Under the pieces are notes generated by a model. It ran no database searches. It had not been told where the DNA came from and worked only from the letters and a program-made list of their open reading frames with translations. Positions 20 to 62,696 of a DNA stretch of 64,000 bases are shown in pieces; the first letter of the stretch is position 1; each line of letters starts with the position of its first letter. Origin of the DNA: a virus; IMG/VR virus record IMGVR_UViG_3300045988_125079, positions 32,001 to 96,000 of that record. One strand, given 5' to 3'. A program made the translations under genes and the position numbers.

Positions 20-95
20 TGGCACGCCTGTTTCGATTCGAACGAAAATCCACTGGGTTTAGAGCCCATTCCTTTACCAATTAAGGTACAGACGC
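20..95 (-). tRNA. tRNA-Sup(CUA), amber suppressor (possibly Gln-derived)
   Basis: 76-nt minus-strand cloverleaf. Acceptor GCGTCTG/CAGGCGT with G1-U72 and U4-G69 wobbles. D arm CCTT-AATTGGTA-AAGG. Anticodon loop C-U-CUA-A-A. T arm TTTCG-TTCGAAT-CGAAA. G73 and CCA are encoded. Confidence 0.8.
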
Positions 96-264: not shown

Positions 265-798
265 CTAATCTTCATTTGAGATAAGTTTAATATCCATGAC
301 TCTGCATGGCAAATTATAAAACTTGCACCATTTCTTTACTGAGTTTCCAGTAACATTAAACATTCTTCCGATTTGATCAAATGGAGTGTCTCTAATTAAT
401 TTTTTCAGATTTTCTCTTGTTGGCCAACAACTATGAAGTTTATTTTTATGACAGGAAACACAGAGCTTTGCTTTTCTGTCGATAATCACTCCACATACTT
501 GACATCGATTTATTTTTTCTTCACACCAATATGAACCATCTTCATATTGATGACACATACCAAAGTCTTCGTGCAGCATGTGGAAACGAGTATGGTCGCT
601 TTGGGTTGCAAATACTATAAGATTTTCTGGACGATTATCGTTTCGGATATGGTTTATATGATGAACCACTTCTTCACGTTTCAACGGCCTCCCTATTTTT
701 TGCTCTGCAACCAAAACATGTTCATACACCATTCCACTGGTATTTGCATGTAAATGATTTGGGCACCAAACTAATATGTAACCATTTGCTATTGCCAT
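265..798 (-). CDS. HNH homing endonuclease (paralog of 1433-1987)
   Basis: ORF 265-1026 trimmed to Met77 (MAIANGY), which aligns with MGYANGY of the paralog; the upstream part overlaps tRNA-Lys. HNH core EVVHHINHIRNDNRPENL. CxxC...CxxC zinc ribbon. C-terminal NSVKKWCKFYNLP. Ends in TAG, with TAA 4 codons later. Confidence 0.8.
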   Translation of the reverse strand: MAIANGYILVWCPNHLHANTSGMVYEHVLVAEQKIGRPLKREEVVHHINHIRNDNRPENLIVFATQSDHTRFHMLHEDFGMCHQYEDGSYWCEEKINRCQVCGVIIDRKAKLCVSCHKNKLHSCWPTRENLKKLIRDTPFDQIGRMFNVTGNSVKKWCKFYNLPCRVMDIKLISNED

Positions 799-821: not shown

Positions 822-900
822 TGGTGTGATCGATGGGGCTCGAACCCACGAAAACCCTCTGATTAAAAGTCAGATGCTCTACCAACTGAGCTACGATCAC
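822..900 (-). tRNA. tRNA-Lys(UUU)
   Basis: Acceptor GTGATCG/CGATCAC. D arm GCTC-AGTTGGTA-GAGC. Anticodon loop CTTTTAA. T arm GTGGG-TTCGAGC-CCCAT. A73 and CCA are encoded. Variable region is 8 nt. Confidence 0.85.
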
Positions 901-1987: not shown

Positions 1988-2009
1988 GATTTTATCCTCC
2001 TAATTTATT

Positions 2010-2076
2010 TGAAGAAGTAGGATTCGAACCTACACTCGGGCTTTCGACCCAGCTCTACCAGTTAAGCTATTCTCCC
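2010..2076 (-). ncRNA. degenerate tRNA-like RNA (truncated anticodon arm)
   Basis: Acceptor GGGAGAA/TTCTTC with G3-U70. Normal D arm (GCTT-AACTGGTA-GAGC) and T arm (GTAGG-TTCGAAT-CCTAC). Only about 17 nt occupy the position of the anticodon arm plus variable loop. Loop TCGAAAG lacks U33. No CCA. The 5' end is preceded by the AUAU leader seen at other tRNAs here. Confidence 0.45.
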
Positions 2077-2290: not shown

Positions 2291-2350
2291 GAAGAATTTG
2301 AGTCAATTACGTGTTGGCCCTCAGGACAACTCCTCCTCTTGACTCGATGT

Positions 2351-2420
2351 TTTTGAATATCGGAATCGAACCGACAAGACAGATTTTATGTCTGCGCCTT
2401 AACCATTTGGCTAATTCAAA
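2351..2420 (-). ncRNA. non-canonical tRNA-like RNA (anticodon undetermined)
   Basis: AU-rich acceptor TTTGAAT/ATTCAAA. D arm GCC-AAATGGTTAA-GGC. T arm GTCGG-TTCGATT-CCGAT. The anticodon stem is either AGACA/TGTCT with loop TAAAATC or GCAGA/TCTGT with loop CATAAAA; both lack U33. The variable region is too short. Confidence 0.45.
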
Positions 2421-2598
2421 ACCCAAGTATTGTTAGAATATATTTATACTTGATCTTCATATAGGCTTATCAGGCCGCTTTTATATGTGACTATTTGCTT
2501 CTTTATTTATTTGATTTCACTCTAGCGCCGCCGTCATTGGCAAAGAGCGAACAATTACAGTTTGTCGTTTTCAATAAACAGTGAATATGTATCAATGA

Positions 2599-14015: not shown

Positions 14016-14582
14016 TTATTCCTCGTTTACAATTTCGATTTGACACATCTTCATGGCGGCAAGTGCATTCTTGTGAGACTCAGGAGTAACGCCGGCACAG
14101 CAGCTTGCATCCACAATGATAGGTACCGACGGTAGAGCAGCTTTGAGCAGCATTGCATTAGAGATCACGCAGATATCAGTACAGAGACCAACCAGAGTAA
14201 TAGAAGTGATGTCCGCACTGGTGCACCAAAAAACATCTTTCAGATCACTTGCCAACCGGAATGATCCAAATGTGAATTTATCGTAAACCGGATTATTTTC
14301 ACACCAGTCTTCATCGGGGATCGTTGCATCGACCTCATCGACAAGCTGCCAGCCTCGTGTACCGCGCAGACAATGTTTAACAGGAAGGCGCTTGCCCTCT
14401 TGGGTTTCGAGATAATTGTTATGGTGAGTATCCCGGGTATACAGGACCTTACCTTTCCAACTCTTGATCTTCTCCACAACCTTCGGCACAATTGCCTGAG
14501 CTTCTGGAGTGCCAAGAGCGCCGGTCACAAAATCGTTCTGCATATCCACAACAATCAGAATATCAGCCTTTGTCTTTTCCAT
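14016..14582 (-). CDS. pncA: nicotinamidase / isochorismatase-family hydrolase
   Basis: ILIVVDMQNDF and TLVGLCTDICV provide the Asp, Lys and Cys catalytic pattern of PncA-type enzymes. Confidence 0.75.
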   Translation of the reverse strand: MEKTKADILIVVDMQNDFVTGALGTPEAQAIVPKVVEKIKSWKGKVLYTRDTHHNNYLETQEGKRLPVKHCLRGTRGWQLVDEVDATIPDEDWCENNPVYDKFTFGSFRLASDLKDVFWCTSADITSITLVGLCTDICVISNAMLLKAALPSVPIIVDASCCAGVTPESHKNALAAMKMCQIEIVNEE

Positions 14583-14594
14583 AAGAACTCTCCC

Positions 14595-15794
14595 TTAATT
14601 GTATTTCCAAATATATCCACCTGCTGATTTTTGTTTTCCTTTACAGCAGTTATAAATATTCGAGTGTTTGATGTTGTAATAGTTCGCAGCATCCGTCATA
14701 CTGCCCCATTCTTTAATTAAATTTCCAGTTTTATCATATTGGAGTACCTTTCGCTTTCCGCCGATATGCTCTTCTTTGCTTTTCGCAAACGCCACAACGT
14801 CATCAACGTCAAGTCCGTCCTCGTCATAAGCCCAAGCGTATCCTTTTGCCATATAAGCTTTCCGGTTACAGCACTCAGAAATTGCTCCATCACTTCCATT
14901 TACGGCTATAGCAGCTTCTGTTATTGTGTCATACCGCGCAACAATTTCTTTAGAATTCACATCTATTTGACAGACTTTTGCCCGATATCGTTTGTGTTTA
15001 TGAACACGCATTTCTTTTTCATGATATTCGTATTTATCAATACATTCTTCATTGAGCATTTGTTGGTAGAATTTTTGAAATATTTCTTCGATACGATTAA
15101 AATGAGTGTATTTAATATAAAGGATTGGAATTTTATGTTCTTCGCAATAATCGGATTTTATTTTGTCCAATCGTTTTCGTTCTTCAAGATTCTTTTCTTT
15201 TTGCTCTTTACATTCACCATTGAATGTAAATGGGTAATAATGCTGTTCGCCTTGTAATTCTACAAGAAACAGTAACTTTTTACTCTCATGGTGAAATATC
15301 GCGAAGTCAAAAGGTAAAGCTCTTGTATCTATACAATCAGCAAATTTATATTGCTGAATATATAAGATATTATTTTCAGACAGATATTGTTGCAGAATAT
15401 ATTCTGCTTTTGAAGAAACACAGCCGCATGATATTGTTTGCCCTGTAGTTAAAGCAGATATTGATACATAAGCGTATCTCCCACAGTCACATTCACATGT
15501 CCATATGGTTCTTTTTCCCGGTTTTCGTACAGGGCATAAAGCCACTAATTTACCAAAACGCTGACCAGTAACATCAACAAACTTAATCTTTGATGTGTTC
15601 TCACTTTGAAAACATCCACATGATCGTGTATGTCCAGATTTTAAATGTGTGCCGGCAACGACAACTTCGTTTCCACAATCGCATTTACAAATCCAATGTG
15701 GTTTATGTTGACCAGACGGTGTTATTCTGTCTTCTGCAGGTCCTATAACTGTTAATCGACCAAATTTTTGACCTGTTAAATCCTCCCTACTCAT
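14595..15794 (-). CDS. homing-endonuclease-like protein (Zn-ribbon repeats + Vsr/PD-(D/E)xK-like core + NUMOD1-type repeats)
   Basis: Two N-terminal repeats GQ(K/R)FG(R/K)L.V..W.C.CDCG...SCGC. Central LPFDFAIF...LVELQGEQHY. Two C-terminal repeats ending GY(A/I)W(A/K)Y. Confidence 0.65.
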   Translation of the reverse strand: MSREDLTGQKFGRLTVIGPAEDRITPSGQHKPHWICKCDCGNEVVVAGTHLKSGHTRSCGCFQSENTSKIKFVDVTGQRFGKLVALCPVRKPGKRTIWTCECDCGRYAYVSISALTTGQTISCGCVSSKAEYILQQYLSENNILYIQQYKFADCIDTRALPFDFAIFHHESKKLLFLVELQGEQHYYPFTFNGECKEQKEKNLEERKRLDKIKSDYCEEHKIPILYIKYTHFNRIEEIFQKFYQQMLNEECIDKYEYHEKEMRVHKHKRYRAKVCQIDVNSKEIVARYDTITEAAIAVNGSDGAISECCNRKAYMAKGYAWAYDEDGLDVDDVVAFAKSKEEHIGGKRKVLQYDKTGNLIKEWGSMTDAANYYNIKHSNIYNCCKGKQKSAGGYIWKYN

Positions 15795-15828
15795 AAATCA
15801 CTCACTTTCTATTGTAATTTTTTACAAT

Positions 15829-16581
15829 TTACTTGACCCAGTTTCTCATAAAGGTAGGCATTGGAAGCATTTTAAACATATTTGCATTGTGAAGCCTATC
15901 GATTTTTGCTGCCGTTTCAGTATCCCCACCAAAGTCTCCAGTACGAATATACTTATCCAGAAATTCGTATGTGAATCCAAGATTGTCTTCGTCCGTTTTA
16001 CCACTCAACCCATCCTGCGGAATTTTGTTGATAAACTTATCAGGCAAGCCAAGCAAAGTTCCAACCGCCTTAACTTCGGTTACTGTTAAATCGCCCAATG
16101 GACTAAATTGACCAACAGTGTCACCAAAAACACTTCCATACCCGGTGTACCGCTCACTATAGTTCGAATTATTGCTCACCCGCCCATTCCTGCTCTGTGC
16201 CACCATGAACAGAGTTGCCATACGGATGCGAGCCGGCAAATTCACACGAGCCTGCTTGGTATCCACGATCCCACCAGTACGGCCAGATTCCAGCAGTGTA
16301 TTCACCGTGCCCGCGATATTGATCTCATGTGAGTCGATGTCGAGGTACTTCACTACCTCACGCGCCACATCAATATCGCTCTGAACACCCTGCGGCATCA
16401 GAACACCAATGACGCGATCCTTGCCAATGGCCTCACAGCACAGAGCCGCCACAATAGTAGAATCCTTGCCACCAGAGATTCCGACGACTGCGTTGCACTC
16501 AGGGCCGTTCTTACGGAAGTAGTTGCGAATCCAGTTGATCAATTCTTCCTTAGTTTTCTTTGCATCGAATGTATAATTCAT
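15829..16581 (-). CDS. nadE: NH3-dependent NAD+ synthetase
   Basis: GISGGKDSTIVAAL is the PP-loop motif (SGGxDS). Length of about 250 aa fits NadE. Confidence 0.8.
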   Translation of the reverse strand: MNYTFDAKKTKEELINWIRNYFRKNGPECNAVVGISGGKDSTIVAALCCEAIGKDRVIGVLMPQGVQSDIDVAREVVKYLDIDSHEINIAGTVNTLLESGRTGGIVDTKQARVNLPARIRMATLFMVAQSRNGRVSNNSNYSERYTGYGSVFGDTVGQFSPLGDLTVTEVKAVGTLLGLPDKFINKIPQDGLSGKTDEDNLGFTYEFLDKYIRTGDFGGDTETAAKIDRLHNANMFKMLPMPTFMRNWVK

Positions 16582-16594
16582 AATTCATTCCTCC

Positions 16595-17059
16595 TTACAG
16601 TTTCCACAGCTCCACATCAACACCCTGGAATGCAGCATCAATATTCTTTTTGACCGTATCCCAGTTTGCACCGCCACGGACACAGCCGATCTTATACGGC
16701 ATTGCTACCTTGAGGTTTCCAGCACGAGCGATATCTGCAACGGTACTGAGCGCTTTTGTCAGAGCATCGATAGAGGTGTACTGCTTCCCGTTATAACCGA
16801 AATCTTCCTGACCGAAACAGTTAGCGATCCAGCGGCTCCCCTCTTCATTCACAGGAACTAGCTGTGCTACACCGAGATTCTGAGCAGGATCATTCATACA
16901 GCGCTCACATAGATCACGATACTGTTCGTATACGGCTGGATACCGTTCACGAACTTCTTTAGCAACACCGGACCCCATAACACCCTGACAATTGACCTGA
17001 TGACAGATAATGTCAGCATCAGAATCAAATACGTTGCCCTCTTTGATCACAACAGCCAT
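16595..17059 (-). CDS. macro-domain protein (ADP-ribose binding/hydrolase)
   Basis: ICHQVNCQGVMGSGVAKEV is a typical macro-domain glycine-rich loop. Start set at the Met 9 nt after GGAGG. Confidence 0.7.
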   Translation of the reverse strand: MAVVIKEGNVFDSDADIICHQVNCQGVMGSGVAKEVRERYPAVYEQYRDLCERCMNDPAQNLGVAQLVPVNEEGSRWIANCFGQEDFGYNGKQYTSIDALTKALSTVADIARAGNLKVAMPYKIGCVRGGANWDTVKKNIDAAFQGVDVELWKL

Positions 17060-17065
17060 CAGCAT

Positions 17066-17278
17066 TCACCTCCGATTCAACTCTTTGATTCCAAAATATT
17101 GCGCTCCTCGTTGACTACGCAAATTAAACTGCTCAAGCTCTGGGGTCCATACAACCACATCCATCTCATCAAAAGCCCCTGCATGAATTAACTTCAGAGC
17201 TTCTTTTCTATCGCATTTGCGAATAACTTTTCCATCGTACCAAAAGCGAATTAAGTTATCAGTGGGTTTATAAATCAT
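17066..17278 (-). CDS. hypothetical protein (70 aa)
   Basis: ORF track trimmed to the ATG (MIYKPTDN), which overlaps the NAMPT stop (TGATG). Confidence 0.5.
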   Translation of the reverse strand: MIYKPTDNLIRFWYDGKVIRKCDRKEALKLIHAGAFDEMDVVVWTPELEQFNLRSQRGAQYFGIKELNRR

Positions 17279-18756
17279 CAAAACTTTCCTTCCCACAGTC
17301 GATCGCGAACTTCTTTCAGACTGTACTCTTTTACCATCTCGCCATTACGGAATACAGTCTGCAACAGGTTGCCGTCGGAATGAGCAGCGTGATCCATCAA
17401 GCCATCTGTATAGGTCAGTTTTCCAGAATCATCCTTGGTGACATAGCACATACCCTTCAGACTCTTCTTAAAGTGATCAGTGTCGGTTTTGGGGTCTTTG
17501 AAGATTTGAATCTCCTTGCCATTGACCACTCCATAAGTTGCCTTAACTGCCATGCCAAAAGTATCGCGGGTAAACGGCTTCAACTGACCATTCTGCTCGA
17601 TGCACTGCATGGAAAAAGAACCAACACCGAGACTGACATTATTGCAGGCGAAGCCGTGTGCTTTGAGTTCGGCATAAATCTTTTCACAGCGCTGCACAGT
17701 AATCGAATCCCCGTATAGTGCCTTCACATGCGGGTCGAGCACCTTGTAGCCCTTACTGTTGACTGTGCCACCGAAGATATCCCACAGATGGTAAACAGTC
17801 TGCGTGACGATTTCTACCGGATCACCAGAGTCGCCACGAATCAGCAGCGTGCCATTGTGCGCCATAATCTCGTCTTTGAGCTGGGGTAGGATATTATCGA
17901 CCAGATTCCAATAGTCGTAGGAATCAGATACCATACTGAAGCTCATATTGGGATACAGCTCAGTCAGCGCCCGGCGGATGAAAGTGATCTCGTCTCCATC
18001 GACAGCGAAGTTAGAACACATCACACTATGCTCGGTGCTAATAGCGCCAAACGCAACGGGCTCCTTAGTGCAATCACAGCGATACATTTCTTCCAGATAC
18101 GGAATCGCAGGAACAGTGGCCGTATTCAAAAAGCTCAGACACCACCCAGCGCTGGATTTGACAGCAGACTGCATACACTCCTGACCACGGAAACTGAAAT
18201 CGCCCAGAGCACGAGCATGAGGCACGCCATCCTCCACGGTTTCATCGTAATATTTGTCCACGATATCGCGGTACAGGGTGCCGACCGTTGCAGAAATCAT
18301 CGGATGCCACAGCTCAGAGCTCATAAAGGATTCGAGGAACTGCGGAACCCATGCGAAATCAGGATGCGTATTGCTCATCTCAAGGAACGGCACATGAATC
18401 GGGCAGCGAGTGCCCTCGGGCAGTGCTTTGATCTCGACAGGAAGATAGCCCAGGTCATGCAGGGCAGCAATCTTATCGATATCATAAGCGTCTTTGCCAA
18501 TGGTTGCGTCCAGGACACGCTGATAATTTGAGACAACCCACTCCTTTGGGAAATCAAAAAACCAACGTTTAAAATAATTCTGCAGATAATTCTTGCAGAA
18601 CGCCTGAACACCAAACACGACGACTTCATCCACGCCATCCAGACGGCTCATACGAGGAGTAAAGTAACTGACCAGCTTGGTAGTGCCAGCCGGGAACTGC
18701 TTACTGTGAGTTGTCTTGTAGAAGTCACACAACAGCATCGGGTTAATATTGATCAT
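17278..18756 (-). CDS. nadV: nicotinamide phosphoribosyltransferase family (NAMPT/NadV; may instead be the NARP1 Namat type)
   Basis: 492 aa. N-terminal LLCDFYKTTH. Overall NAPRTase/NAMPT-like layout, including ALYGDSIT. Confidence 0.75.
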   Translation of the reverse strand: MININPMLLCDFYKTTHSKQFPAGTTKLVSYFTPRMSRLDGVDEVVVFGVQAFCKNYLQNYFKRWFFDFPKEWVVSNYQRVLDATIGKDAYDIDKIAALHDLGYLPVEIKALPEGTRCPIHVPFLEMSNTHPDFAWVPQFLESFMSSELWHPMISATVGTLYRDIVDKYYDETVEDGVPHARALGDFSFRGQECMQSAVKSSAGWCLSFLNTATVPAIPYLEEMYRCDCTKEPVAFGAISTEHSVMCSNFAVDGDEITFIRRALTELYPNMSFSMVSDSYDYWNLVDNILPQLKDEIMAHNGTLLIRGDSGDPVEIVTQTVYHLWDIFGGTVNSKGYKVLDPHVKALYGDSITVQRCEKIYAELKAHGFACNNVSLGVGSFSMQCIEQNGQLKPFTRDTFGMAVKATYGVVNGKEIQIFKDPKTDTDHFKKSLKGMCYVTKDDSGKLTYTDGLMDHAAHSDGNLLQTVFRNGEMVKEYSLKEVRDRLWEGKF

Positions 18757-25879: not shown

Positions 25880-26686
25880 TCATTCTCCATCAAACCAATC
25901 AGAAACTCGATCCGACATCCTGTCCATCTTTTCCTGTGCAGCCTTACAATACCTCATTGTGATTCTTTCATCGCTATGATTCAATTTCATCTGGAGAAGC
26001 TGCAGAGTATTTCCTTCGTCTTGAGTCCCCTCTGCACTCTTTAGCGCTGCCATTGCATATGTTTTTCGCATTGTATGTGTAGACAATTCAATATCAAGGC
26101 CGCACATTTTACCGGCATTTTTCAGGATACCATATATCGATCGAACATTAAGCGAACCGCCCTTCTGGCTCTGGAATAAAAACACATCTCGTGAGACTTC
26201 AAAATGCTGCTCGTCGTAATATTCTTTCAAAACTTCGGCAGCCATTTTAGGAATTTTACAGATATTTCGCTTTCCTGTTTTCTGCTCAAAAACATCAAGA
26301 TGGCTCTTTACTTTACCATTTAGTGTATAAACATCTTCCGTCTTTAGTTTTACAAGATCGCTGCAACGAAGACCGACAGAACAACCAAGAATGAACAGCG
26401 TTTTATTCCTGATTCTATATCCGACCTTACCGTTTTTACCAAGATAATCTACTACTTTTTTGAACTCCTCTTTAGATTGAATCGGACTAGCCGGAGTCGG
26501 CTTCTTTCGTCCATCGCAAGTGTAAAGACTTGTTGTTTTCGTCTTCTTTTGTTTTTTTCGAGCAGCTGTTACGGCGTCACGAATCATCTGCTGCAATTCA
26601 TCTTCAGATAACGTAATATGAGCTTCGTCAGAAGAATTAGGAAATATAATCAGCTTATCTTTTTCTTTTACCGCTGCTTCTGCCAT
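25880..26686 (-). CDS. tyrosine recombinase / phage integrase family
   Basis: GLRCSDL (Arg I), HTMRKTY (HxxR) and LNHSDERITMRYC (His and catalytic Tyr). Confidence 0.8.
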   Translation of the reverse strand: MAEAAVKEKDKLIIFPNSSDEAHITLSEDELQQMIRDAVTAARKKQKKTKTTSLYTCDGRKKPTPASPIQSKEEFKKVVDYLGKNGKVGYRIRNKTLFILGCSVGLRCSDLVKLKTEDVYTLNGKVKSHLDVFEQKTGKRNICKIPKMAAEVLKEYYDEQHFEVSRDVFLFQSQKGGSLNVRSIYGILKNAGKMCGLDIELSTHTMRKTYAMAALKSAEGTQDEGNTLQLLQMKLNHSDERITMRYCKAAQEKMDRMSDRVSDWFDGE

Positions 26687-27675: not shown

Positions 27676-28908
27676 TTATGCGGCATCTTTTGGACGAAGA
27701 TCGTCTTTAATCATAGCCATCACATCAACATGGTATTTGTTGTTGGCTTTTGAAATCAACGCTTTGATTTTGTCTTTTTCTACCATTTTATAATAGCTGA
27801 TAAGACCATTAAGCTCCTGAACGTCTTCAATTGTCCAAGGAGCATTTTCCTTTTTACAGCGGATATAGTTGGACATCATAATCTTGAATGTCTTGATGTT
27901 ACGCCATCCAACCGTGATTTCATTGTTCTGATTCCACATCAAGCCGAGCACCCAGTTTTTACTCGAATGACGATTGCCGTAATGAGTTTTTTCTTCATTC
28001 AGAGTAAATGGAGCATGGATATACGCCAGAATATTTTTGATTACATCCTGCATCTCCATATAGTCAAAACTCAAATAACAACTAATCGTGATATCATCCG
28101 CATATCTTGTATAAGTAAAATCACGAGTAATGCCATCTTTCATTTTGAAACCATGACGAATTTTTCGACTCAGCAAATGATCAAATGGAATCATCATGAC
28201 ATTCGTAAGCCAAGGACTCAAGGGGCTTCCCTGCGGTAATCCATTGCGAAGAAAAGCAATCTTTAATGCATCACTCAACGCTTCATGGCCGCCGAATGGA
28301 TCTTGCATGATAAGAGCGAACGGATAAATCACACTCAACATTCCCATAACAAACTCTGGATTAGAGCTGGGGAAAAATCCGTGAAAGTCGAATTTTACAG
28401 ACCAGTTATTTTCATAAATAACCTGCTCTTTTTCTCCTGTTGTCGGGTTCGTTTTAGTCCGCACATGCCCTTCCTGATGTTTTTTCACAGCAGTCAAAGT
28501 AGACCGATGCGGAACATAAGCATGTGCCGCAGTATGATAGTCTGCAAGCATAAAGCTTTTTAACAACGTTTGCAGTTCGTTCAATGCGTCACTAAGGATT
28601 TTGTCTGGAGCATCAATTGGCCGCATGCCACCTGTTTTTTTGGGAATTTCATAGTGAGTATAGTGAACAGACATATCCGGTTCAGATTCGAGCTGTTCGT
28701 ATTTCTTATTAAACGCTTCGAGTTCTCGAATCATTCGGTTAATATCTGTCATGGCTCTCAAACGTGGGGTAAGTTCGTCTCTACAAACAGTCACAGTCGA
28801 AGTAACATCTTCTCGATATTTCAATTTCTCAGACTCGATAATGCCTGCAAGAATCTCATCGATTGTGATCTGTCTCGTTTTAGGGGCTGCTTTGTATGTA
28901 ATATACAT
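27676..28908 (-). CDS. reverse transcriptase (retron/Abi/DRT-like, stand-alone RT domain)
   Basis: RT motifs KKTGGMRPIDAP (1), HAYVPHRS (2a), KFDFHGFFPS (3), GLPQGSPLSPWLTN (4), YTRYADDITIS (5) and KNWVLGL (7). No endonuclease, maturase or Cas domains. Confidence 0.85.
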   Translation of the reverse strand: MYITYKAAPKTRQITIDEILAGIIESEKLKYREDVTSTVTVCRDELTPRLRAMTDINRMIRELEAFNKKYEQLESEPDMSVHYTHYEIPKKTGGMRPIDAPDKILSDALNELQTLLKSFMLADYHTAAHAYVPHRSTLTAVKKHQEGHVRTKTNPTTGEKEQVIYENNWSVKFDFHGFFPSSNPEFVMGMLSVIYPFALIMQDPFGGHEALSDALKIAFLRNGLPQGSPLSPWLTNVMMIPFDHLLSRKIRHGFKMKDGITRDFTYTRYADDITISCYLSFDYMEMQDVIKNILAYIHAPFTLNEEKTHYGNRHSSKNWVLGLMWNQNNEITVGWRNIKTFKIMMSNYIRCKKENAPWTIEDVQELNGLISYYKMVEKDKIKALISKANNKYHVDVMAMIKDDLRPKDAA

Positions 28909-28929
28909 ATTATCTTCCTCTTATCGTGA

Positions 28930-29165
28930 TCTAAATAGGTCTCAGCTCATTCCAAGCCTGATCGCAGTGCGGATCTTGACTATGTTGTTGAGCGATACAT
29001 CGTAAAATTTCACCCTGCAGTGACGCTGATGACGTCGACTACCTGGAGGATGGCCGTTGCCTCCGCGGTACCTCCATGGCCATCGGCGGCTCGCGGGGCA
29101 CCTCCCTCGTTCTACCTTTGCGAACCAATCGGATCTCCGGTTGGACTGTGGTTAACAGTAATTCA
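28930..29165 (+). ncRNA. GC-rich structured element, copy B (same family as A and C)
   Basis: Helices GATGGCC/GGCCATC and CCGCG/CGCGG. The 3' module is CTACCTTTGCGAA, hairpin CCAATCGG-ATCT-CCGGTTGG, hairpin CTGT-GGTTA-ACAG, then TAATTCA. Confidence 0.4.
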
Positions 29166-29185
29166 TCACGATTTTATTTCAAATT

Positions 29186-29860
29186 TTAACTTGCAATAAC
29201 ACTATGCTGATAAGGATCAACAACAATCATCTTGTTGACTTTATTCTTCCCCATAGCAAATCCGATGAAATTCGTAACAGCCTGACAGCAGATTTCACGA
29301 ACTGTCGGAGCAAGTCCCTGAACAACGCCACATGCAGAAACGGGCGTACTTGCCGTGGCTTCTTCGTGAGTGAAATCCATAGAATTTTTGAGATTTTCCT
29401 TCATGGATTCATCCATCCAATCAGCCGCCCAACACTGAGCGTCGTAAAGACCGGTTCGGATATCAAACACGCCCTTAATATTGGGATTATATTTGTTCTT
29501 CTCCATGAAATCTTTTCGAATTTCAATGTTGTCAACAGCCAGGAAAACATATCCCTGAACCTGTTCACCATGCCAACCATTGGGTTTGATGATGATATCG
29601 TCCTTCGCGTCAGGATTAATCATGCAGATGAGATTTGCAACAGCTTCAACCTTCGGATGACCAATATCCTGCTGGAAAAACATTTGGTTCACGATATTCT
29701 TCGATTCAACGATGTCCATATCCCAAAGCGTAAAATTAGTGAGGCCGTATCGAGCCAACAGCTCAGCCACAGTCGAACCAACAGAACCACAGCCAATGAT
29801 ATGCACCTGGCCACGAATTTCTTTAGGATTGAAAATCATCTCAATCTTGCTCAGATTCAT
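29186..29860 (-). CDS. ThiF/MoeB/E1-like adenylyltransferase (short, no obvious catalytic-Cys domain)
   Basis: HIIGCGSVGSTVAELLARYGL is a Rossmann GxGxxG motif at the N-terminus. 224 aa. Confidence 0.75.
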   Translation of the reverse strand: MNLSKIEMIFNPKEIRGQVHIIGCGSVGSTVAELLARYGLTNFTLWDMDIVESKNIVNQMFFQQDIGHPKVEAVANLICMINPDAKDDIIIKPNGWHGEQVQGYVFLAVDNIEIRKDFMEKNKYNPNIKGVFDIRTGLYDAQCWAADWMDESMKENLKNSMDFTHEEATASTPVSACGVVQGLAPTVREICCQAVTNFIGFAMGKNKVNKMIVVDPYQHSVIAS

Positions 29861-29877
29861 TTGTTTATCCTTTCTTT

Positions 29878-30840: not shown

Positions 30841-30854
30841 TTATATCTCCCCTT

Positions 30855-37948: not shown

Positions 37949-38353
37949 ACAGAGAGGAGGATTTAACCATGTACACCATCAGCGAGGAGCAAGCGGCTTA
38001 CCAATGCGCAATACTCGGTCGCGTCAGTAGATACAACACATAAGCGATTAGGTCTCTTATGGTGTCCATCCTCAAAGGCTGCCCTTTTCAAATTCACTCT
38101 CCGATACTCTGGGCACCGAGCATCTATGCCACTTTCGCAGGCAGTGCCAAATTCGCCTACTCATAATAGAGCCATGCACATCCACTGTGGCGGGTAGCTA
38201 CTCCCGTTGCATCATGGTTATTATTTTCGGTCAGAGCGTTATGGGTGTGTCAGAGGGGGAGTATGATCACCCACGGTGGAATTGCGCCACCCCAGCGACC
38301 GCGCACTACACTACGCTGCCGCATCGAACCTAGCTTTGCGGCTTGCACCGCTA

Positions 38354-46462: not shown

Positions 46463-46742
46463 GTAATTTGAACCTCCTTTCTGATGTGTTCGTTCGCTTA
46501 CACGACCTTTAAGATACTTACGAAATTCAATTTTGAATCCGTGCACTGACTCGCGATCGAAAAACGTTTTCACCCTCGGGCGGAACGCTTGCTCTTACTG
46601 CTACGCTTTTTCAACGTGCTTTTAAAACTGGGCTTGGAACCAGCACGGTTCTGCAGAACTCGTGGCCGCATTACACTCCGGCACTATTGCACCGGAGCGT
46701 CCTCTGCGTTATTCATCGCAACAATCGAAATAAACGTCATAA

Positions 46743-54698: not shown

Positions 54699-56027
54699 AT
54701 GAAATTTTATGACACTTCCGCCCTACTCGATCTCGGTGCTGCAGCATTCACAAGTCAGTTCTTGATTGCAGACATGACTTTGCACGAGTTAGAAGATATT
54801 AAAACAAGTGGTAAAAAGAACGAAGAAACTCGTTAGAAGGCACGTACCGTAACCCGCCTGCTTGCTGAACACCGCGACGATGGTAGCTTCCGAGTAGTAG
54901 CCGTTCCCATGTCTTCCCTATTCTACATCTTGGATGGCAAGCCAATCAGTGACAATAATGACGCGACGATCATGGCAACCGCCTATTGGTATCTGGATGA
55001 GCTGTGTCACAATTTGAATGACGCGATTGAAGCCGGTCTCACAGACGCACAGCGACAGATCCAAGCTGATATCGATTCTTTTAAATTTGTCACCAGCGAC
55101 TTAAGTTGTGCCAATATCGCCAGCGGTATTCTTGATCTACCGACTGAGTTCACTTTTCCTAACGCAACAGCTGCGAAAAACGACTATAAAGGATGGATAG
55201 AGGTCGCCCTAGAAGATGGCGGCGAAGAAGCGTTGGCTATGGCCTACTCTAAAGATGTCGAGCAGAAGAACTTGTTTGATACGCCCACTAACGGTTATGT
55301 CTTAATCCCAAATGCAGACGCTGATGGTAACACGGCTGGACTTCGCTGGGATGGCTCGCGCTATGTACCTATTAAGTATAAAAAAATCAGCAACCGCTTC
55401 ACTGGGGACATTCGCCCTCTCAACAATCAGCAGAAACTCGCCTTTGATATGCTGCAGAACGACAACATCACCGTCAAGATGCTTGCTGGAACATTCGGCA
55501 GTGGTAAAACGATGCTCATGGTGTCATCCGCTATTGATATGATCGAGAAACATAAAATTGACAAACTGATCTGGATTCGCAACAACATCGAAGTCAAGAA
55601 CACAAAAGAACTGGGAGCACTTCCCGGCACTCTACTAGAGAAGCTAGGAGCGGCCTCATTTGCTGGACCTCTTGCAGACCATTTGGGCGGAGAAAGCGGT
55701 TTGGAGTATTGGATCAAGAATGGGCAAGTAGAGGTGGCGCATCTCGGCTTCATTCGTGGGCGCGACTATAAGAATGCTATCTTGCTAGTATCAGAAGCAG
55801 AGAACTTGACAAAAGAACACATCCAGTTGCTGCTCGGCCGTGTAGGTGAAGGATCTATGCTGTGGCTTGACGGCGACTTGAAGCAGACGGATGAGGCGGT
55901 ATTTGAAAATAACAGTGGTATGCGCAAGGCAATCTCTGCTTTGACTGGAAATCCGCACTTTGCTTATGTGTACATGCCGAAGACAGAACGCAGCGAGACC
56001 GCACAGCTTGCCGATCTACTCGATTGA
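54699..56027 (+). CDS. phoH: PIN-domain + PhoH-like ATPase (YlaK-like), with in-frame TAG at 54834-54836
   Basis: ATG at 54699 gives MKFYDTSALLDLG...HELEDIK (PIN-like) in the same frame as ORF 54909-56027, which has Walker A GTFGSGKT. The two parts are separated by a single TAG. Confidence 0.7.
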
Positions 56028-56040
56028 GGCGTCGCGCAAG

Positions 56041-56475
56041 ATGATAGAAGTAAAAATAAGCGGCCTGAAAGTAGCGGACTACTGGTCTCCTACCGACGGA
56101 TGGAACTATGACGCCATTGATAGTCTTGCAAAAGAATTGTACGACCGCTACCGAGAAGCCGAAGCCGAACAGACAGTGGAGTTATTCAAGAACTACATAG
56201 AAAAAATGAGTATACTACATGAAATCGATCCATTCTCTATTGACTATATCCGCGATCAGATTGAGTGGATGATTCGTCCTTTGATGCATCGTGGAATGAC
56301 GATGAAAAAACGGTTGCAGATAAACGCATTGACCTATGAGATCGTAGAAAAGTTGCTTCCCTCTTATCTTGATAATATGGCTATGCTACATCAGTTACAA
56401 AAAGAATTAGAAAATGCGGCTTTGCATCGATATTTGATTACGCCATTTGGCAAAAGGACAGCTGTATGGAAATAA
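56041..56475 (+). CDS. hypothetical protein (144 aa)
   Basis: ORF track trimmed to MIEVKISG. Confidence 0.55.
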   Translation: MIEVKISGLKVADYWSPTDGWNYDAIDSLAKELYDRYREAEAEQTVELFKNYIEKMSILHEIDPFSIDYIRDQIEWMIRPLMHRGMTMKKRLQINALTYEIVEKLLPSYLDNMAMLHQLQKELENAALHRYLITPFGKRTAVWK

Positions 56476-56714
56476 TGAATGAAGCTAATTTGAATATGTT
56501 CTGGGCGATTGATGAGTATTTGACTTATAAGATGTCGCGATACTTTAATGCGTATATTCTTCTGATTGGTTTAAAAGACGATTCTGGTTTCTTTATGAAT
56601 TTTGAAGGTGGCAAAGGTGGAGTCGAAGGTCATTTATATAAAGAAAAAGGTCCAGCGGTATTCGCATTTATTGGCGACAATTACAAGATTCTACGAAATG
56701 ACGATGCAAAGTAG
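56466..56714 (+). CDS. hypothetical protein (82 aa); ends in TAG (would extend to 56771 if TAG is sense)
   Basis: ORF track. The next in-frame stop after the TAG is TGA at 56769-56771. Confidence 0.5.
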   Translation: MEIMNEANLNMFWAIDEYLTYKMSRYFNAYILLIGLKDDSGFFMNFEGGKGGVEGHLYKEKGPAVFAFIGDNYKILRNDDAK

Positions 56715-56790
56715 ATTGTAGATTTAGCATTAAAACTATGCAGTCAATACGAAGATCAATTATTTAATTGAATAGGAGGTTCCACAGGGT

Positions 56791-58047: not shown

Positions 58048-58320
58048 ATGACACGAGAAGAAACTATAAAGTTAGTTGCTGAGAGCATATTTAGCGATCC
58101 AAGTATTAAGGCAACTCAACGGCAAGATGATCTTATTAAAGTAATAACATGTATGGCTGTGAATGGTGTTGACCATGTTTTGTATAAAGATAAAAAATAT
58201 AGACTTGATTGCGACGCAGGTTGGTTATTGTCTGACTTTATTATAAACGATTTTTATACATATCCGAAACCAATATACATAAATAAACAGCAGCCGCTAA
58301 TTTGCAGGAGTTTATTATGA
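58048..58320 (+). CDS. protein with CxSLL-COOH tail (LICRSLL)
   Basis: ORF track trimmed to MTREETIK, which has GGGGAAGGAA upstream. Confidence 0.6.
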   Translation: MTREETIKLVAESIFSDPSIKATQRQDDLIKVITCMAVNGVDHVLYKDKKYRLDCDAGWLLSDFIINDFYTYPKPIYINKQQPLICRSLL

Positions 58321-59075
58321 ATAGAATTGATTTTCAAAATGGATCGTAGATTCAAACGATAGAAACCAATCACGACGAATCTCAGGATGAAGTAATTAAT
58401 GTTTGGTCTGCAGATGGCAAACCAGTTAGAATCTGTCGTGAAAGCAATCCGAGCATTCAAGTGGTAAAACAATGTGCTGCAGATTATATAAAAAGATGGG
58501 CTGAAGTAAAACATTCAATTTCGACAATGCCTGAAGTATCAGACAAGTTTGACTATGAGTTTTATAACTACTCCCCTTCTCCGACTATTAATACGATTGA
58601 TTTATTTAATCGAGAATATGAAATGATAGTAAATGCAGAACGACAATCACATAAAGAAGAGGACGATATGAGAATTTTATTTGTAAGTCCAGAAAAATAC
58701 GATGCCGTATGTTCTTGGTATGATAATTTAGACACTGTACAAAAACACCGTAAAGTAATCGTAATATGCAAATCGCCGGACGAATTCCGTGAAAAGTTTG
58801 ACTATAGTAAAATGAATGCACAGTGTACTATGTTCTACTTTGATGAATATCTTGGATTGGCTAAGTCGTTTGAATATTGCAAATTATTTACTAAGTTGTA
58901 TGGAGAAGCTGATGTTAGATACATCTGTGGAAATAAAATGCGACAGATAAATATAGATGATTTAATGTGCCGCAATACATTTGATTGGTTTAAAGAGTTT
59001 TCTGTCGTGCCAGAATGCTTGGAAGATCTTATTCGAAATAGTAAGAGAGCCTTCGTTTGTAAGAGTCTATTATGA
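58317..59075 (+). CDS. protein with CxSLL-COOH tail (FVCKSLL) and in-frame TAG at 58347-58349
   Basis: The coupled ATG at 58317 (ttATGa) gives MNRIDFQNGS-TAG-IQTIETNHDES..., in frame with ORF 58461-59075. Confidence 0.55.
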
Positions 59076-60152: not shown

Positions 60153-62696
60153 TTGTTTAGTCCACCATTATATAGCGTACTAAAATTTAACTTGAATTAT
60201 ATCGTTTCTCATAACTATAATTTTAAACTGACACCAGAAGAGATGGAGCAGTATAAAGTCTTGCAGGGTGACGATATGCTGTTCAGACAGATTCGGCTCA
60301 TTTCCGACGACTAGAATAAATTCCAGCGCTTTATTATCTTTGTTGATGCAACAGGCGGCCAAAACCACCCTGATGCTATCGATCATTTAGTAGAGCATGG
60401 ATTCAAATTTAATGGTCAAAAATATCTGTTCTGTGAACGTAGTGCAAGTATGGTTCGTCAGAGTATGTTGAGTTTTGTTGAGCGACATATCTACCCTGAA
60501 CTCGATCGCCGTGTAAGCATGGAACTGGATTTTTCTGAGACACCAACTGTCCTGAGCAAGTATTATGCATATCGTGGTTTGATGCTGAGCAGCTGCCACT
60601 GTCTGGAGAACTGGTATCCCAAAATGATTGTTGTTCCAGATTATATGACAACGATCAAGAATCAGTGGATCGAGTACCTGGTAGACAAAACTGTGACGTT
60701 TAATGACCGCAAAACAGGCAAAGAACGTACCTGGACCCAGAAAGATATCGCCACAAAAACAGTTGACATTGATATCAACGCCTTTGATGGTGCTGGAATA
60801 TGCCACCCAAGTATCATGCGCGAATTTGAAAAGCGTATCGGTACTTCTGAACGGATGAATAGCTTGATTCTACGTGCTCCATATATCAAGGGTTGCTTAC
60901 ACGAGATTGATTACGAGCGTTTTTTTGAAGAGAACGGCGTTACAAAAATCAAGGATATCTGGGGTATGGAATATGATGTAACACCTGGCAGTGAACCAAT
61001 GATTATTATTACTGCTTCAATGTACAAGGGTCTCAAATATTTCAAGAAAACTGGTACCTATTCTGACTGGGAGAGATACTGGGAACTCTTCAAGAAGTAC
61101 GATAACTGCCTTGGTGTAGCCAAATGGAACTTTACGCTTGAACAAGAACCGCTTTCCACCCGTAGCAACTATCAGGTTATTCAAGACCTACAGCTTGACA
61201 ATGAGTCTTTTAAGCATCTAGCCGACGACAGCATTACCTGGTATCAGAATATTGTCAAAGGCGACCCGATTTATACATACTGCTTCCTTGGTTTACTTGC
61301 CGAGAACAATGACCCGATGAATCATTACATGGCTGCTGCCCTGCGTAATCCAGTGATGGTAAAAGAGCCGGCAATCAAAGATTATATTCACTCGCTGCTT
61401 GATAAATATCGCAATGAGATGAAGTGCGGTCGGCTTTGGATGAATGCTACTTTTAAGTTCTGGGCTCCTGACCTTATCGCACTATTGCAGCATATTGGTG
61501 GCCTTCCTGTGACTGGCTGCCTTGAAGACGGTGAGTTCTACAGTTTCGATCGTCGTGGTGTGATGGAAGGAGACCGCTTAATTGAGCGCAATCCCCATAT
61601 CTCTGTTGCTGAGCATGTAAAGGCCAAGGCCGTAGACAACGAATACACCCATAAATACTGCAGCCATCTTCAGAATGTTGCTATGGTGAATATCAAATCC
61701 ATCGTGGCTTCCAGACTTAATGGTTCAGATTTTGACGGCGACCTGGTTTTAATCATCGACAATCCGCTGATGATGAGTGGTGTTCCTGATAATATCCCCA
61801 TTACACTTGATGTTGAAGATAAGATCACTGCGTTAGCAGAATGTGATATTGTGAAGAACAAAGTTGCTTGCACCATTCGTGGATTGAAAAGTTCTATTGG
61901 TGAGATCTCAAACTACGCAACTGCATACCATAATAAGGTTCCGACCATGGAAAAGACCAAAAAGCTCTATCACGATAATATTTCGCTTTTGAGTATCTGC
62001 AACGGAAAAGCTATCGATTATGCCAAAACCGGTGTTCTGTATCCGATCCCGCGTAATGTAGCAGCTTATGGTCGTCCTCTACCCTACTTTATGAAGTATG
62101 CAGGTCCTTACTACGCACGTTTACATAATCTCAGCAAGGCACATAGCAACATGAACCTGCTTTGCATGAGTCTGGAGCGTTGGGAGCGCGGTGTACGGTG
62201 GCGCAAAGAGCCGGCAGGCAGCTTTGATTGGCATATCATGTACGACCCAGAGGTCTCCTATGACCAGGCAGTCTTTGATGAGATCGAAGCCATTTTCTTG
62301 GATTTCAACAAATGCCGCAAGGAACAGCTTGAGTTCGAAAAGAAATGCCGCAACTGGCAATTATATCATAAGGACATCGAGTCGCGTATTACCAAAGAAG
62401 AAGCCAAGACATATGAAACGAACTGGCAGGCGATCTACAATGTCTACCGTAACAAGTGCAAGCTGGTGTGTCCTGATGTGAGAGAGCTGGCGAATATTCT
62501 TGTAGTGCTTTGCTATGAGAAGTATCCAAATAAATTTAAGAAGTTCTTGTGGCACATGGCCGGCGCTGGTGTGGTCGAAAATATCAAGCCGGTTCTTGTT
62601 CAGTTACCAGTTCACGACCCGAACGGTGAGTATGAATATCTTGGCCAGCGATATAGTTTGGCTGAACCGAAAACTTATGAAGCGAGGGTGAAATAA
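60153..62696 (+). CDS. YonO-like single-subunit RNA polymerase (DPBB, DFDGD), with in-frame TAG at 60312-60314
   Basis: NGSDFDGDLVLII resembles the universal NADFDGD Mg-binding loop. ORF 60450-62696 extends upstream in frame through one TAG to a TTG at 60153, which lies 9 nt after GAGGAG. Confidence 0.6.

What the first reader, a model, noticed from the sequence alone, without database searches (positions are those of the whole stretch)
20..95. Element-encoded amber-suppressor tRNA (anticodon CUA)
A well-formed 76-nt cloverleaf has anticodon loop C-U-C-U-A-A-A, giving anticodon CUA, which pairs with UAG. The weak 1-72 pair (G-U), G73 and U35 are reminiscent of Gln tRNA identity, but the charged amino acid cannot be read from the sequence. 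Stop-codon-recoded gut phages that carry their own suppressor tRNA are known (TAG to Gln, genetic code 15). This tRNA provides the mechanism for the in-frame TAGs reported below.
Basis: partly seen in the sequence, partly recalled or inferred. Interest (0 to 1): 0.75.

Follow-up and report, generated by a model that had tools for sequence, protein, structure and literature searches.

The report
Phage amber suppressor tRNA reading TAG as tryptophan
A gut phage related to Bacillus phage SPbeta carries a real tRNA that reads the stop codon TAG, and comparison with dozens of relatives indicates it inserts tryptophan rather than the glutamine assumed for such phages, a stop-codon reassignment not previously reported in viruses.

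Summary
Window 20-95 (minus strand) is a canonical 76-nt tRNA with anticodon CUA, G1·U72, G73 and an encoded CCA (ARAGORN; Rfam 58.6 bits). The cloverleaf is supported by compensatory changes in 16 of 21 pairs across relatives.

The window comes from an SPbeta-like gut phage of roughly 100-190 kb, probably infecting Clostridia. The tRNA sits in a conserved tRNA array.

The genome uses in-frame TAG only in its plus-strand late block. In the window these are the PhoH-like gene (54834), a small gene (56712), the YonO-like RNA polymerase gene (60312) and perhaps 58347. More follow just past the window, including the terminase gene.

The Gln/code-15 reading is not supported:
- In about 70 related genomes TAG alternates mainly with TGG, never with Lys/Glu/Leu/Ser codons at the scored sites of the reference late block, and falls on invariant Trp columns.
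- The same array slot holds tRNA-Trp(CCA) in relatives that have no in-frame TAG.
- Suppressor presence predicts TAG use perfectly (29 versus 8 genomes).
- The same method on the published code-15 phage phAss-1 returns CAA/CAG.
- Database "Q" residues at these sites are TAG codons translated with table 15.

Most likely this is a tRNA-Trp-derived suppressor that makes TAG mean Trp. Charging was not tested.

The parts
20..95 (-). Suppressor tRNA, anticodon CUA (tRNA-Trp-derived). Features: G1·U72, C2-G71, A9, G18G19, loop CUCUAAA, 5-nt variable loop, T loop UUCGAAU, G73, encoded CCA.
   Evidence: ARAGORN. Rfam tRNA 58.6 bits. Sequence. Covariation. Conserved slot in relatives. Nearest isotype is tRNA-Trp(CCA).
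265..798 (-). HNH homing endonuclease gene inserted between tRNA-Lys and the suppressor. It is one of only 2-3 genes in the window that end in TAG, and a back-up TAA lies 3 codons downstream.
   Evidence: Pfam HNH_3 on the identical gene in L004-L007. Stop-codon tally and read-through length. The Lys-to-suppressor spacing varies from 82 to about 1050 nt in relatives.
822..900 (-). tRNA-Lys(UUU), the conserved upstream neighbour of the suppressor slot in the tRNA array (...Phe-Lys-[Sup or Trp]-Ser-Glu...Gln).
   Evidence: ARAGORN and Rfam. Array order in 62 relatives.
54699..56027 (+). PIN-PhoH-like (YlaK-type) gene, first gene of the plus-strand block, with an in-frame TAG at 54834-54836 (codon 46).
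   Evidence: The PHROG 2765 profile match spans residues 3-440 across the TAG. TAG is conserved in L008-L012 with synonymous changes around it. Relatives have TAT, TAC or GCT at this position. Database 'Q' is TAG.
56466..56771 (+). Small late-block gene with an in-frame TAG at 56712-56714 (codon 83). Under the standard code it would end there; it continues 18 codons to TAA.
   Evidence: 13-14 relatives have TGG at this position with conserved flanks on both sides (YKILRNDDAK[W/TAG]IVDLALKLCS).
58317..59075 (+). Small late-block gene with a probable in-frame TAG at 58347-58349 (codon 11).
   Evidence: Conserved RBS and ATG at 58317 and no alternative start before 58461. L043 has GAA here with a protein-level alignment on both sides. 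L012 has a TAA two codons downstream, so this site is uncertain.
60153..62696 (+). YonO-like single-subunit RNA polymerase gene (Pfam RdRP, DFDGD motif) with an in-frame TAG at 60312-60314 (codon 54).
   Evidence: The PHROG 8308 match spans the TAG. Pfam RdRP on relatives. Homologues of 849-857 aa align upstream of the TAG. TAG is conserved in 24-29 relatives; others have TAC, TAT, GAC, GAT or AAC. Database 'Q' is TAG.

Best explanation
The feature is a functional, phage-encoded amber suppressor tRNA descended from the phage family's tRNA-Trp (anticodon CCA changed to CUA). It lies in the tRNA array of the minus-strand (early/middle) block of an SPbeta-like gut phage.

When expressed, it reads UAG as a sense codon, most probably tryptophan. 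This lets ribosomes finish late-block genes in which roughly 15% of Trp positions are written TAG. In the window these are the PhoH-like gene, a small gene and the YonO-like RNA polymerase gene. Just downstream they include the Metallophos, YonG-like and terminase genes.

What is shown:
- The tRNA is real and under structural selection.
- TAG is in frame in conserved genes.
- TAG use and the suppressor co-occur.
- TAG is interchangeable with TGG.

What is inferred:
- The host TrpRS charges the tRNA with Trp through G73 and the acceptor stem, despite U35.
- Confining TAG to the late block, including the polymerase that in SPbeta transcribes late genes, makes late expression depend on suppressor supply.
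For: 1. Real tRNA.

2. In-frame TAGs: profile matches span them. They are conserved in relatives amid synonymous change. TAG ends only 2-3 of about 104 genes (P=5e-5 against a 15% expectation), and those genes have back-up stops 0-3 codons downstream.

3. Amino acid. With L057 late genes as reference (5064 aligned codons), 9 of 59 TGG sites have TAG in a relative. The other one-step codons give CAG 3/94, CAA 0/71, TAT 3/198, TAC 0/71, AAG 0/186, GAG 0/164, TTG 0/62 and TCG 0/18. Of 9 reference TAG sites, 8 alternate only with TGG. No TGA or TAA occurs at Trp sites (W versus other one-step codons P=7e-8). TAG sites in relatives' YonO fall on Trp columns conserved 120/120 and 117/120. The two TAGs of the window lineage's YonG-like gene fall on columns that are W23/F15 and W34 of 38 among homologues below 60% identity. 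The terminase site is TAG/TGG/TTC/TTT.

4. tRNA ancestry. The slot between tRNA-Lys and tRNA-Ser holds a CUA tRNA in 44 loci, tRNA-Trp(CCA) alone in 11 and neither in 6. All suppressor families are nearest to tRNA-Trp(CCA), at 71-77% identity. They share U72, G73, A9 and the loop CUC[C/U]AAA.

5. Co-occurrence. 29 of 29 suppressor genomes have 4-11 TAGs at 35 scored sites. 8 of 8 genomes without the suppressor have 0-1 (P=3e-8).

6. Positive control. The same pipeline on phAss-1 and 10 relatives gives CAA 41, CAG 30 and TGG 0 (P=1e-15 against this family).

7. Late-block restriction in the window: 3 validated TAG versus 45 TGG in the late block, against 0 versus 225 in the early block.
Against: - Aminoacylation was not measured.
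- Bacterial TrpRS reads C35 through three hydrogen bonds (PMC12135181), so a U35 tRNA should be a poorer substrate.
- The E. coli tRNA-Trp(CUA) suppressor is charged with Gln (PMC9976931).
- phAss-1 carries a Trp-like CUA tRNA although its TAG aligns with Gln. Ancestry alone therefore does not fix the amino acid.
- Two of the window's own TAG sites (PhoH, YonO) lie at variable positions where relatives have Tyr, Ala, Asp or Asn, so they do not discriminate.
- A few sites alternate with Tyr codons, one or two with Glu codons, and 3-4 rare variants with CAG.
- Only about 84 kb of this genome lineage was seen, so other suppressors, an aaRS or a release factor elsewhere are not excluded.
- The regulatory role is inference only.
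Confidence: 0.75

Rival explanations
1. Standard code 15. The CUA tRNA is charged with glutamine, by GlnRS because of U35 or through the Glu-tRNA amidation route, and TAG means Gln.
For: Code 15 is the only TAG reassignment described so far in gut phages. The E. coli tRNA-Trp(CUA) suppressor is glutaminylated. phAss-1 combines a Trp-like CUA tRNA with TAG=Gln. Public gene callers already translate these genes with table 15. A few rare TAG variants sit at CAG sites.
Against: TGG is the dominant partner of TAG. CAA never partners it in the reference late block and only rarely elsewhere, in doubtful frames, whereas true code-15 phages show CAA 41, CAG 30 and TGG 0 with the same method. TAG falls on invariant Trp columns. 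The 'Q' alleles are table-15 artefacts. The tRNA lacks the features of the phage's own tRNA-Gln (U1-A72, A73, D arm, loop CUUUGAC). G1·U72 is not the U1-A72 that bacterial amidotransferases are reported to use (own knowledge).
Confidence: 0.1
2. Ambiguous or other decoding. The tRNA inserts a mixture (Trp plus Gln or Lys) or another aromatic residue such as Tyr. Selection merely tolerates TAG where an aromatic residue is acceptable.
For: Six or so sites alternate with TAT/TAC and one with TTC/TTT. U35 is an identity element for LysRS and GlnRS, and plant tRNA-Trp(CUA) is mischarged with Lys. Loss of C35 weakens TrpRS recognition.
Against: 0 of 186 AAG sites have TAG partners. The tRNA has a 5-nt variable loop and G73, unlike bacterial class II tRNA-Tyr with A73 (own knowledge). 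Invariant Trp columns carry TAG.
Confidence: 0.1
3. The tRNA is a decaying or non-functional copy. The TAGs are true stops, recent nonsense mutations or assembly errors.
For: Only 3-4 TAGs lie inside the window. The single-sequence fold is not a clean cloverleaf. No significant promoter-like site was found.
Against: Compensatory evolution occurs in all four stems. The anticodon loop, G1·U72 and G73 are invariant across three diverged suppressor families. The same TAGs are conserved in dozens of independent samples, in essential genes (terminase, RNA polymerase). There is perfect co-occurrence with the tRNA. No in-frame TGA or TAA occurs at Trp sites.
Confidence: 0.02
4. Pyrrolysine tRNA, as ARAGORN labels it.
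For: Anticodon CUA and G73.
Against: The tRNA has a canonical D loop with G18G19, a T loop UUCGAAU, a 5-nt variable loop and a 5-bp anticodon stem. tRNA-Pyl has a small D loop without G18G19, a 3-nt variable loop and a 6-bp anticodon stem (own knowledge). No Pyl genes were seen among the annotated window genes. TAG aligns with Trp.
Confidence: 0.01

Closest known systems
Code-15 gut phages with Sup-CTA tRNAs: crAss-like and Lak phages, and the SPbeta-related phAss-1 group (PMC10607447; Borges et al. preprint 10.1101/2021.08.26.457843; PMC9523058)
   Same: A phage-encoded CUA tRNA inside a tRNA cluster. In-frame TAG in late or structural genes. TAG is avoided as a terminator. Close relatives use the standard code. 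No phage aaRS is evident.
   Different: TAG aligns with Trp (TGG) here, not with Gln (CAA/CAG). The contrast was shown with the same method on phAss-1 relatives. Use is sparse, about 4-11 TAGs per 22 kb of late region, against 41 of 147 ORFs in phAss-1. The tRNA shares no close sequence with phAss-1 suppressors (55-60% identity).
Code-4 phages of Firmicutes (Agate and Jade clades), TGA to Trp with Sup-TCA tRNAs (Borges et al.)
   Same: A stop codon is reassigned to tryptophan by a tRNA-Trp-like suppressor in large Firmicutes phages, and recoding is concentrated in late genes.
   Different: The codon is TAG, which needs U35 instead of U34. Position 34 is not discriminated by bacterial TrpRS, but C35 is read directly, so this change is mechanistically harder. 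No TrpRS or release factor was found in the sequence held.
E. coli su7/supU, the amber suppressor allele of tRNA-Trp (CCA to CUA)
   Same: The same single anticodon change on a tRNA-Trp body with G73 and U72.
   Different: In E. coli it is charged with Gln by GlnRS. Here the comparative evidence points to Trp. All three phage suppressor families also carry C2-G71 and G1·U72, which the family's tRNA-Trp(CCA) genes only partly share.
NCBI translation table 32, Balanophoraceae plastid code (UAG = Trp)
   Same: The same codon assignment. It was the only UAG-to-Trp case found in the paper library.
   Different: That is a plastid genome-wide reassignment in a parasitic plant. This is a virus-borne switch imposed on a host that uses the standard code.

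Membership tests
Canonical elongator tRNA (Rfam RF00005) | Covariance-model score above the gathering threshold, and a cloverleaf with U8, A14, G18G19, U33, G53, T54-Psi55-C56 and C61 | tested here: met
   58.6 bits against 29. ARAGORN call. All listed positions are present in the sequence.
Canonical elongator tRNA (Rfam RF00005) | Stems maintained by compensatory substitutions among homologues | tested here: met
   97.6% of cells are paired. 16 of 21 pairs have changes on both sides. 0 of 500 shuffles reach the score.
Phage stop-codon recoding by a suppressor tRNA | Anticodon complementary to a stop codon | tested here: met
   CUA at positions 34-36.
Phage stop-codon recoding by a suppressor tRNA | In-frame occurrences of that stop codon in conserved genes of the same genome | tested here: met
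   PhoH-like 54834, 56712 and YonO-like 60312 in the window. Six or more lie in the next 9 kb of the same lineage.
Phage stop-codon recoding by a suppressor tRNA | Suppressor presence and recoded codons co-occur across related genomes | tested here: met
   29 of 29 suppressor genomes against 0 of 8 genomes without it.
Phage stop-codon recoding by a suppressor tRNA | The reassigned codon is depleted as a terminator | tested here: met
   2-3 of about 104 genes end in TAG, each with a back-up stop 0-3 codons on.
Genetic code 15 (TAG = Gln) | In-frame TAG aligns with Gln (CAA/CAG) in homologues | tested here: not met
   TGG is the main partner and CAA never partners TAG in the reference late block. 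The phAss-1 control gives CAA 41 and CAG 30. Database Q residues are TAG.
Genetic code 15 (TAG = Gln) | Suppressor tRNA with tRNA-Gln body features | tested here: not met
   The phage tRNA-Gln(UUG) has U1-A72, A73, a GCC/GGC D stem and loop CUUUGAC. Identity to the suppressor is 47 of 76 and at best 67-69%, below the 71-77% to tRNA-Trp.
Bacterial-type tRNA-Trp lineage | Discriminator G73 with U72 opposite A1 or G1 | tested here: met
   G1·U72 and G73 are invariant in all suppressor variants. The family's tRNA-Trp(CCA) genes have A1-U72 or G1·U72 plus G73. Identity elements are taken from PMC9976931.
Bacterial-type tRNA-Trp lineage | Homology and synteny with tRNA-Trp(CCA) | tested here: met
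   Same array slot. Nearest isotype for all three suppressor families. Anticodon loop CUC[C/U]AAA.
Bacterial-type tRNA-Trp lineage | Anticodon C34-C35-A36, recognised by TrpRS | tested here: not met
   Position 35 is U, and TrpRS contacts C35 directly. This does not argue against descent from tRNA-Trp, but it leaves charging by TrpRS unproven.
Bacterial-type tRNA-Trp lineage | Aminoacylation with tryptophan | not testable with these tools
   Only indirect evidence: TAG/TGG interchange and Trp-conserved columns.
tRNA-Pyl | Small D loop lacking G18G19, 3-nt variable loop, 6-bp anticodon stem, and pyl genes nearby | tested here: not met
   The D loop, T loop, 5-nt variable loop and 5-bp anticodon stem are all canonical. 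No pyl genes were found among the annotated genes. The defining features come from my own knowledge.

The most novel reading that the evidence does not exclude
A whole family of SPbeta-like phages of gut Clostridia has reassigned UAG to tryptophan using tRNA-Trp-derived CUA suppressors. This would be the first UAG=Trp code in a virus, and the first outside Balanophora plastids. It would mean a bacterial TrpRS, or an unknown phage factor, efficiently charges a U35 tRNA-Trp in vivo. It would also mean current pipelines mistranslate these phages by writing Q for W. Placing TAG early in the YonO-like polymerase and PhoH-like genes would make the late programme conditional on suppressor expression.
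Probability: 0.7. Interest if true: 0.85.

Novelty: new variant of a known kind. Interest (0 to 1): 0.8.

Why it matters
Phage stop-codon recoding has been described as two cases only, TAG to Gln and TGA to Trp. That pattern has been explained by the intrinsic tendency of GlnRS and TrpRS to accept the respective suppressors (Borges et al.).

A TAG-to-Trp family breaks the pattern in three ways:
- It shows that the amino acid cannot be assumed from the codon.
- It predicts a natural Trp-accepting amber suppressor. That is of interest for tRNA identity (how is U35 tolerated?) and for genetic-code engineering.
- It exposes a systematic annotation error. Public protein sets already contain these genes with Q at Trp positions.

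The family also offers closely related genomes with a CUA tRNA, a CCA tRNA or neither in the same slot. That is a natural series for studying how a code change starts.

Tried and rejected
- Coding-density comparison under alternative stop sets was uninformative, because recoding is sparse and local.
- I first counted Q in the closest database homologues of PhoH and YonO as support for Gln. I rejected this after the underlying DNA showed TAG at every such Q.
- TAGs at 56773, 57249 and 57590 looked in-frame. They lie in a conserved RBS/overlap motif (TGTAGGAGTTTACTATGA) upstream of the start codons.
- TAG at 11727 lies upstream of the true start, judged from gene calls in L004. TAGs at 4016 and 33483 lie in a repeated upstream motif.
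- Many TAG/CAG 'sites' from the all-against-all comparison are antisense or off-frame ORFs, where CTA/CTG Leu codons on the real strand mimic TAG/CAG. I restricted the analysis to the coding strand of the late block.
- A search for a CCA-anticodon twin of the window-type tRNA by exact pattern found nothing. The tRNA-Trp(CCA) genes in the slot belong to diverged sequence families.
- Using this family's proteins to read phAss-1 TAGs failed at about 23% identity. I replaced it with phAss-1's own IMG/VR relatives.
- No theta/HDV-like ribozyme was found beside the suppressor.
- No release-factor GGQ motif and no class I synthetase KMSKS motif in a real ORF was found in the sequence held.
- The phage tmRNA is not tied to the suppressor: it also occurs in genomes with tRNA-Trp(CCA) in the slot.
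- The promoter scan gave no more hits than shuffled sequence.
- Host assignment is weak: one 8.6-kb contig binned in an Oscillospiraceae MAG.

Full report
**1. The observation**

ARAGORN finds a 76-nt tRNA at window 20-95 on the minus strand with anticodon CTA. Rfam's tRNA model matches at 58.6 bits against a gathering score of 29.

Read on the minus strand it is GCGUCUG-UA-CCUU-AAUUGGUA-AAGG-A-AUGGG-CUCUAAA-CCCAG-UGGAU-UUUCG-UUCGAAU-CGAAA-CAGGCGU-G-CCA.

Thirteen further copies from related contigs, and then 44 from IMG/VR relatives, fall into three diverged sequence families. On an alignment of ten suppressor variants and four tRNA-Trp(CCA) relatives, the cloverleaf is 97.6% paired. 16 of 21 pairs have changes on both sides, and no shuffle of 500 reaches the covariation score. 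The tRNA is real and under selection.

**2. Context**

PHROG and Pfam hits, and the gene content of the flanks, identify an SPbeta-like phage. It encodes a YonO-like RdRP-type RNA polymerase with a DFDGD motif, together with YomU/V/W, YonB/D/G, YorH, PhoH, NAMPT and an anti-repressor.

- Contigs carrying its genes are 100-190 kb and come from human gut samples.
- The nearest cultured relatives by the polymerase are Thomasclavelia phages (41% identity), followed by Enterocloster and Bacillus SPbeta phages.
- Homologues sit in Clostridia genomes and in a contig binned with an Oscillospiraceae MAG.
- Genes run on the minus strand from 1 to about 54 kb. This block holds the tRNA arrays, a tmRNA, and replication and metabolism genes.
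- Genes run on the plus strand from 54.7 kb onward: PhoH-like, small genes, YonO-like, then the terminase and structural genes beyond the window.
- The suppressor sits at the end of a conserved array...Thr-Asp-Asn-Phe-Lys-[slot]-Ser-Glu...Gln. In this genome an HNH endonuclease gene is inserted between Lys and the slot.

**3. Is TAG read through?**

In the window, TAG ends only 2-3 of about 104 genes, and each has a back-up stop 0-3 codons on.

Three TAGs are in frame in conserved genes:
- Codon 46 of the PhoH-like gene (54834).
- Codon 83 of a small gene (56712).
- Codon 54 of the YonO-like gene (60312).

A fourth, at 58347, is probable. The supporting evidence is as follows. Profile matches run across the TAGs. 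The TAGs are kept in relatives while neighbouring codons change synonymously. Homologues continue on both sides. Other apparent in-frame TAGs turned out to lie in a conserved RBS motif or upstream of the start codon.

In the next 9 kb of the same lineage (L008) there are at least six more, in a Metallophos gene, a YonG-like gene (two) and the terminase gene. No validated in-frame TAG lies in the 54-kb minus-strand block. The window counts are 3 TAG versus 45 TGG in the late block and 0 versus 225 in the early block, P=0.005.

**4. Which amino acid?**

I aligned the late regions of about 70 related genomes and asked which codons stand where one genome has TAG.

With L057 as reference (5064 aligned codons), the fraction of sites with TAG in a relative was:

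| Reference codon | Sites with TAG in a relative |
|---|---|
| TGG | 9/59 |
| CAG | 3/94 |
| CAA | 0/71 |
| TAT | 3/198 |
| TAC | 0/71 |
| AAG | 0/186 |
| GAG | 0/164 |
| TTG | 0/62 |
| TCG | 0/18 |

- Of nine reference TAG sites, eight alternate only with TGG.
- No TGA or TAA ever stands at a Trp site, so this is not mutational noise.
- Over all loci, 27 plus-strand sites have TGG as the main partner. A handful have Tyr or Phe codons.
- In 120 YonO homologues down to 47% identity, two TAG sites of relatives fall on columns that are W in 120/120 and 117/120.
- In 120 YonG homologues, the two TAG sites of the window lineage fall on columns that are W23/F15 and W34 of 38 among proteins below 60% identity.

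As a control, the identical procedure on the published code-15 phage phAss-1 and ten IMG/VR relatives gives CAA at 41 sites, CAG at 30 and TGG at none.

The Q residues that the closest database proteins show at the TAG positions are TAG codons translated with table 15 by the source pipelines. They are not evidence for Gln.

**5. The tRNA's origin**

In 62 related loci the slot between tRNA-Lys and tRNA-Ser holds a CUA tRNA in 44, tRNA-Trp(CCA) alone in 11 and nothing in 6. One locus has both a CUA tRNA and a tRNA-Trp.

All suppressor families are nearer to these tRNA-Trp genes (71-77% identity) than to any other isotype in the arrays, including the phage's tRNA-Gln(UUG). They share U72, G73, A9 and the loop CUC[C/U]AAA. 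G73 and the first acceptor pair are the known bacterial Trp identity elements outside the anticodon (PMC9976931; PMC12135181).

For 37 contigs both the slot and the late region are in hand:
- 29 genomes with a CUA tRNA have 4-11 TAGs at 35 scored sites.
- Three genomes with only tRNA-Trp(CCA) have 0, 0 and 1.
- Five genomes with neither have none (P=3e-8).

**6. Mechanism and its limits**

The best-supported reading is that a tRNA-Trp-derived amber suppressor makes UAG a Trp codon during infection. About 15% of Trp positions in late genes are written TAG.

Charging is inferred, not shown. TrpRS contacts C35 directly. The E. coli equivalent suppressor is glutaminylated. phAss-1 shows that a Trp-like CUA tRNA can coexist with TAG=Gln. 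All three suppressor families carry C2-G71 with G1·U72, which may matter for charging; that is speculation.

No synthetase or release factor was found in the sequence held. The idea that TAG near the 5' end of the PhoH-like and YonO-like genes gates the late programme follows the proposal of Borges et al. and SPbeta biology (own knowledge). It is untested.

**7. Novelty**

Phage-encoded CUA suppressors and late-gene TAG recoding are known, including in SPbeta-related gut phages (PMC10607447).

The paper library contains no report of TAG=Trp in a phage. Borges et al. state that only TAG to Gln and TGA to Trp were seen. The only UAG-to-Trp hit is the Balanophora plastid code. I therefore rate this a new variant of a known kind, with about 0.75 confidence in the Trp assignment and near certainty that the tRNA is a functional suppressor.

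Noticed in passing
window 38351-38737 (-): A phage-encoded tmRNA (Rfam 92.4 bits; tag peptide ANNNSYRCAA). I wondered whether it rescues ribosomes that read through TAG stops. However, the same tmRNA 3' end occurs in relatives with tRNA-Trp(CCA) in the slot as well as in suppressor genomes, so it is not tied to recoding.
   Followed up: partly
window 46628-46708 (-): A Twister-P5 ribozyme match (45.9 bits against a gathering score of 37.6) in an intergenic stretch of the minus-strand block.
   Followed up: no
window 57247, 57588, 58303, 59058 (+): A repeated gene-junction motif TGT/C-AGGAG-TTTACT-ATGA (RBS plus ATGA stop/start overlap). It makes consecutive small proteins end in C[R/K/Y/E]SLL and places an out-of-frame TAG just upstream of each start. 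These TAGs mimic in-frame stops in stop-to-stop ORF scans.
   Followed up: partly
database proteins P0001, P0014, P0121, P0241 (loci L191-L195): Public gene calls for this phage family were made with table 15, so every TAG is written as Q. If TAG is Trp, these deposited proteins carry Q at conserved W positions.
   Followed up: yes
window 14016-18756 (-): An NAD-related cluster: isochorismatase/nicotinamidase-like, an HNH/NUMOD endonuclease, NAD synthase, a Macro domain and NAMPT. This resembles phage NAD-replenishing gene sets.
   Followed up: no
window 27676-32327 (-): A reverse transcriptase (RVT_1) gene lies next to a ThiF-like gene and two large genes (320 and 490 aa) with no family match. 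A tyrosine recombinase gene lies at 25880-26686.
   Followed up: no
L008 14866-17734 (about 2.9-5.0 kb beyond the window's right end): The terminase large-subunit gene of the window lineage is split by an insertion carrying a DUF723 endonuclease gene. It is intact (585 aa) in L009 and L012. Homing endonuclease genes in this family themselves use TAG at the conserved Trp of the NLRW motif.
   Followed up: partly
window 2009-2076 (-) and 2349-2421 (-): An extra tRNA-like sequence is seen only by Rfam (39.5 bits). A 'tRNA-Leu(UAA)' has a U-rich acceptor (UUUUGAA...) and no CCA. Relatives have tRNA-like genes with odd anticodon calls ('at', ATA, ATG) at the same place in the array.
   Followed up: no
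L160 12539-12610 (phAss-1, OQ749652 62539-62610): One of phAss-1's three Sup-CTA tRNAs is 72% identical to that phage's own tRNA-Trp and has nearly the same anticodon arm. A second (62445-62532) has A1-U72, G73 and a 21-nt insertion in the variable region. Yet TAG aligns with Gln in that group, so tRNA ancestry and decoded amino acid can differ.
   Followed up: partly
L096-L157, the slot between tRNA-Lys and tRNA-Ser: Suppressor family A shows length variation in a T-run in the variable loop (total tRNA length 77-81 nt) among otherwise near-identical genes.
   Followed up: no
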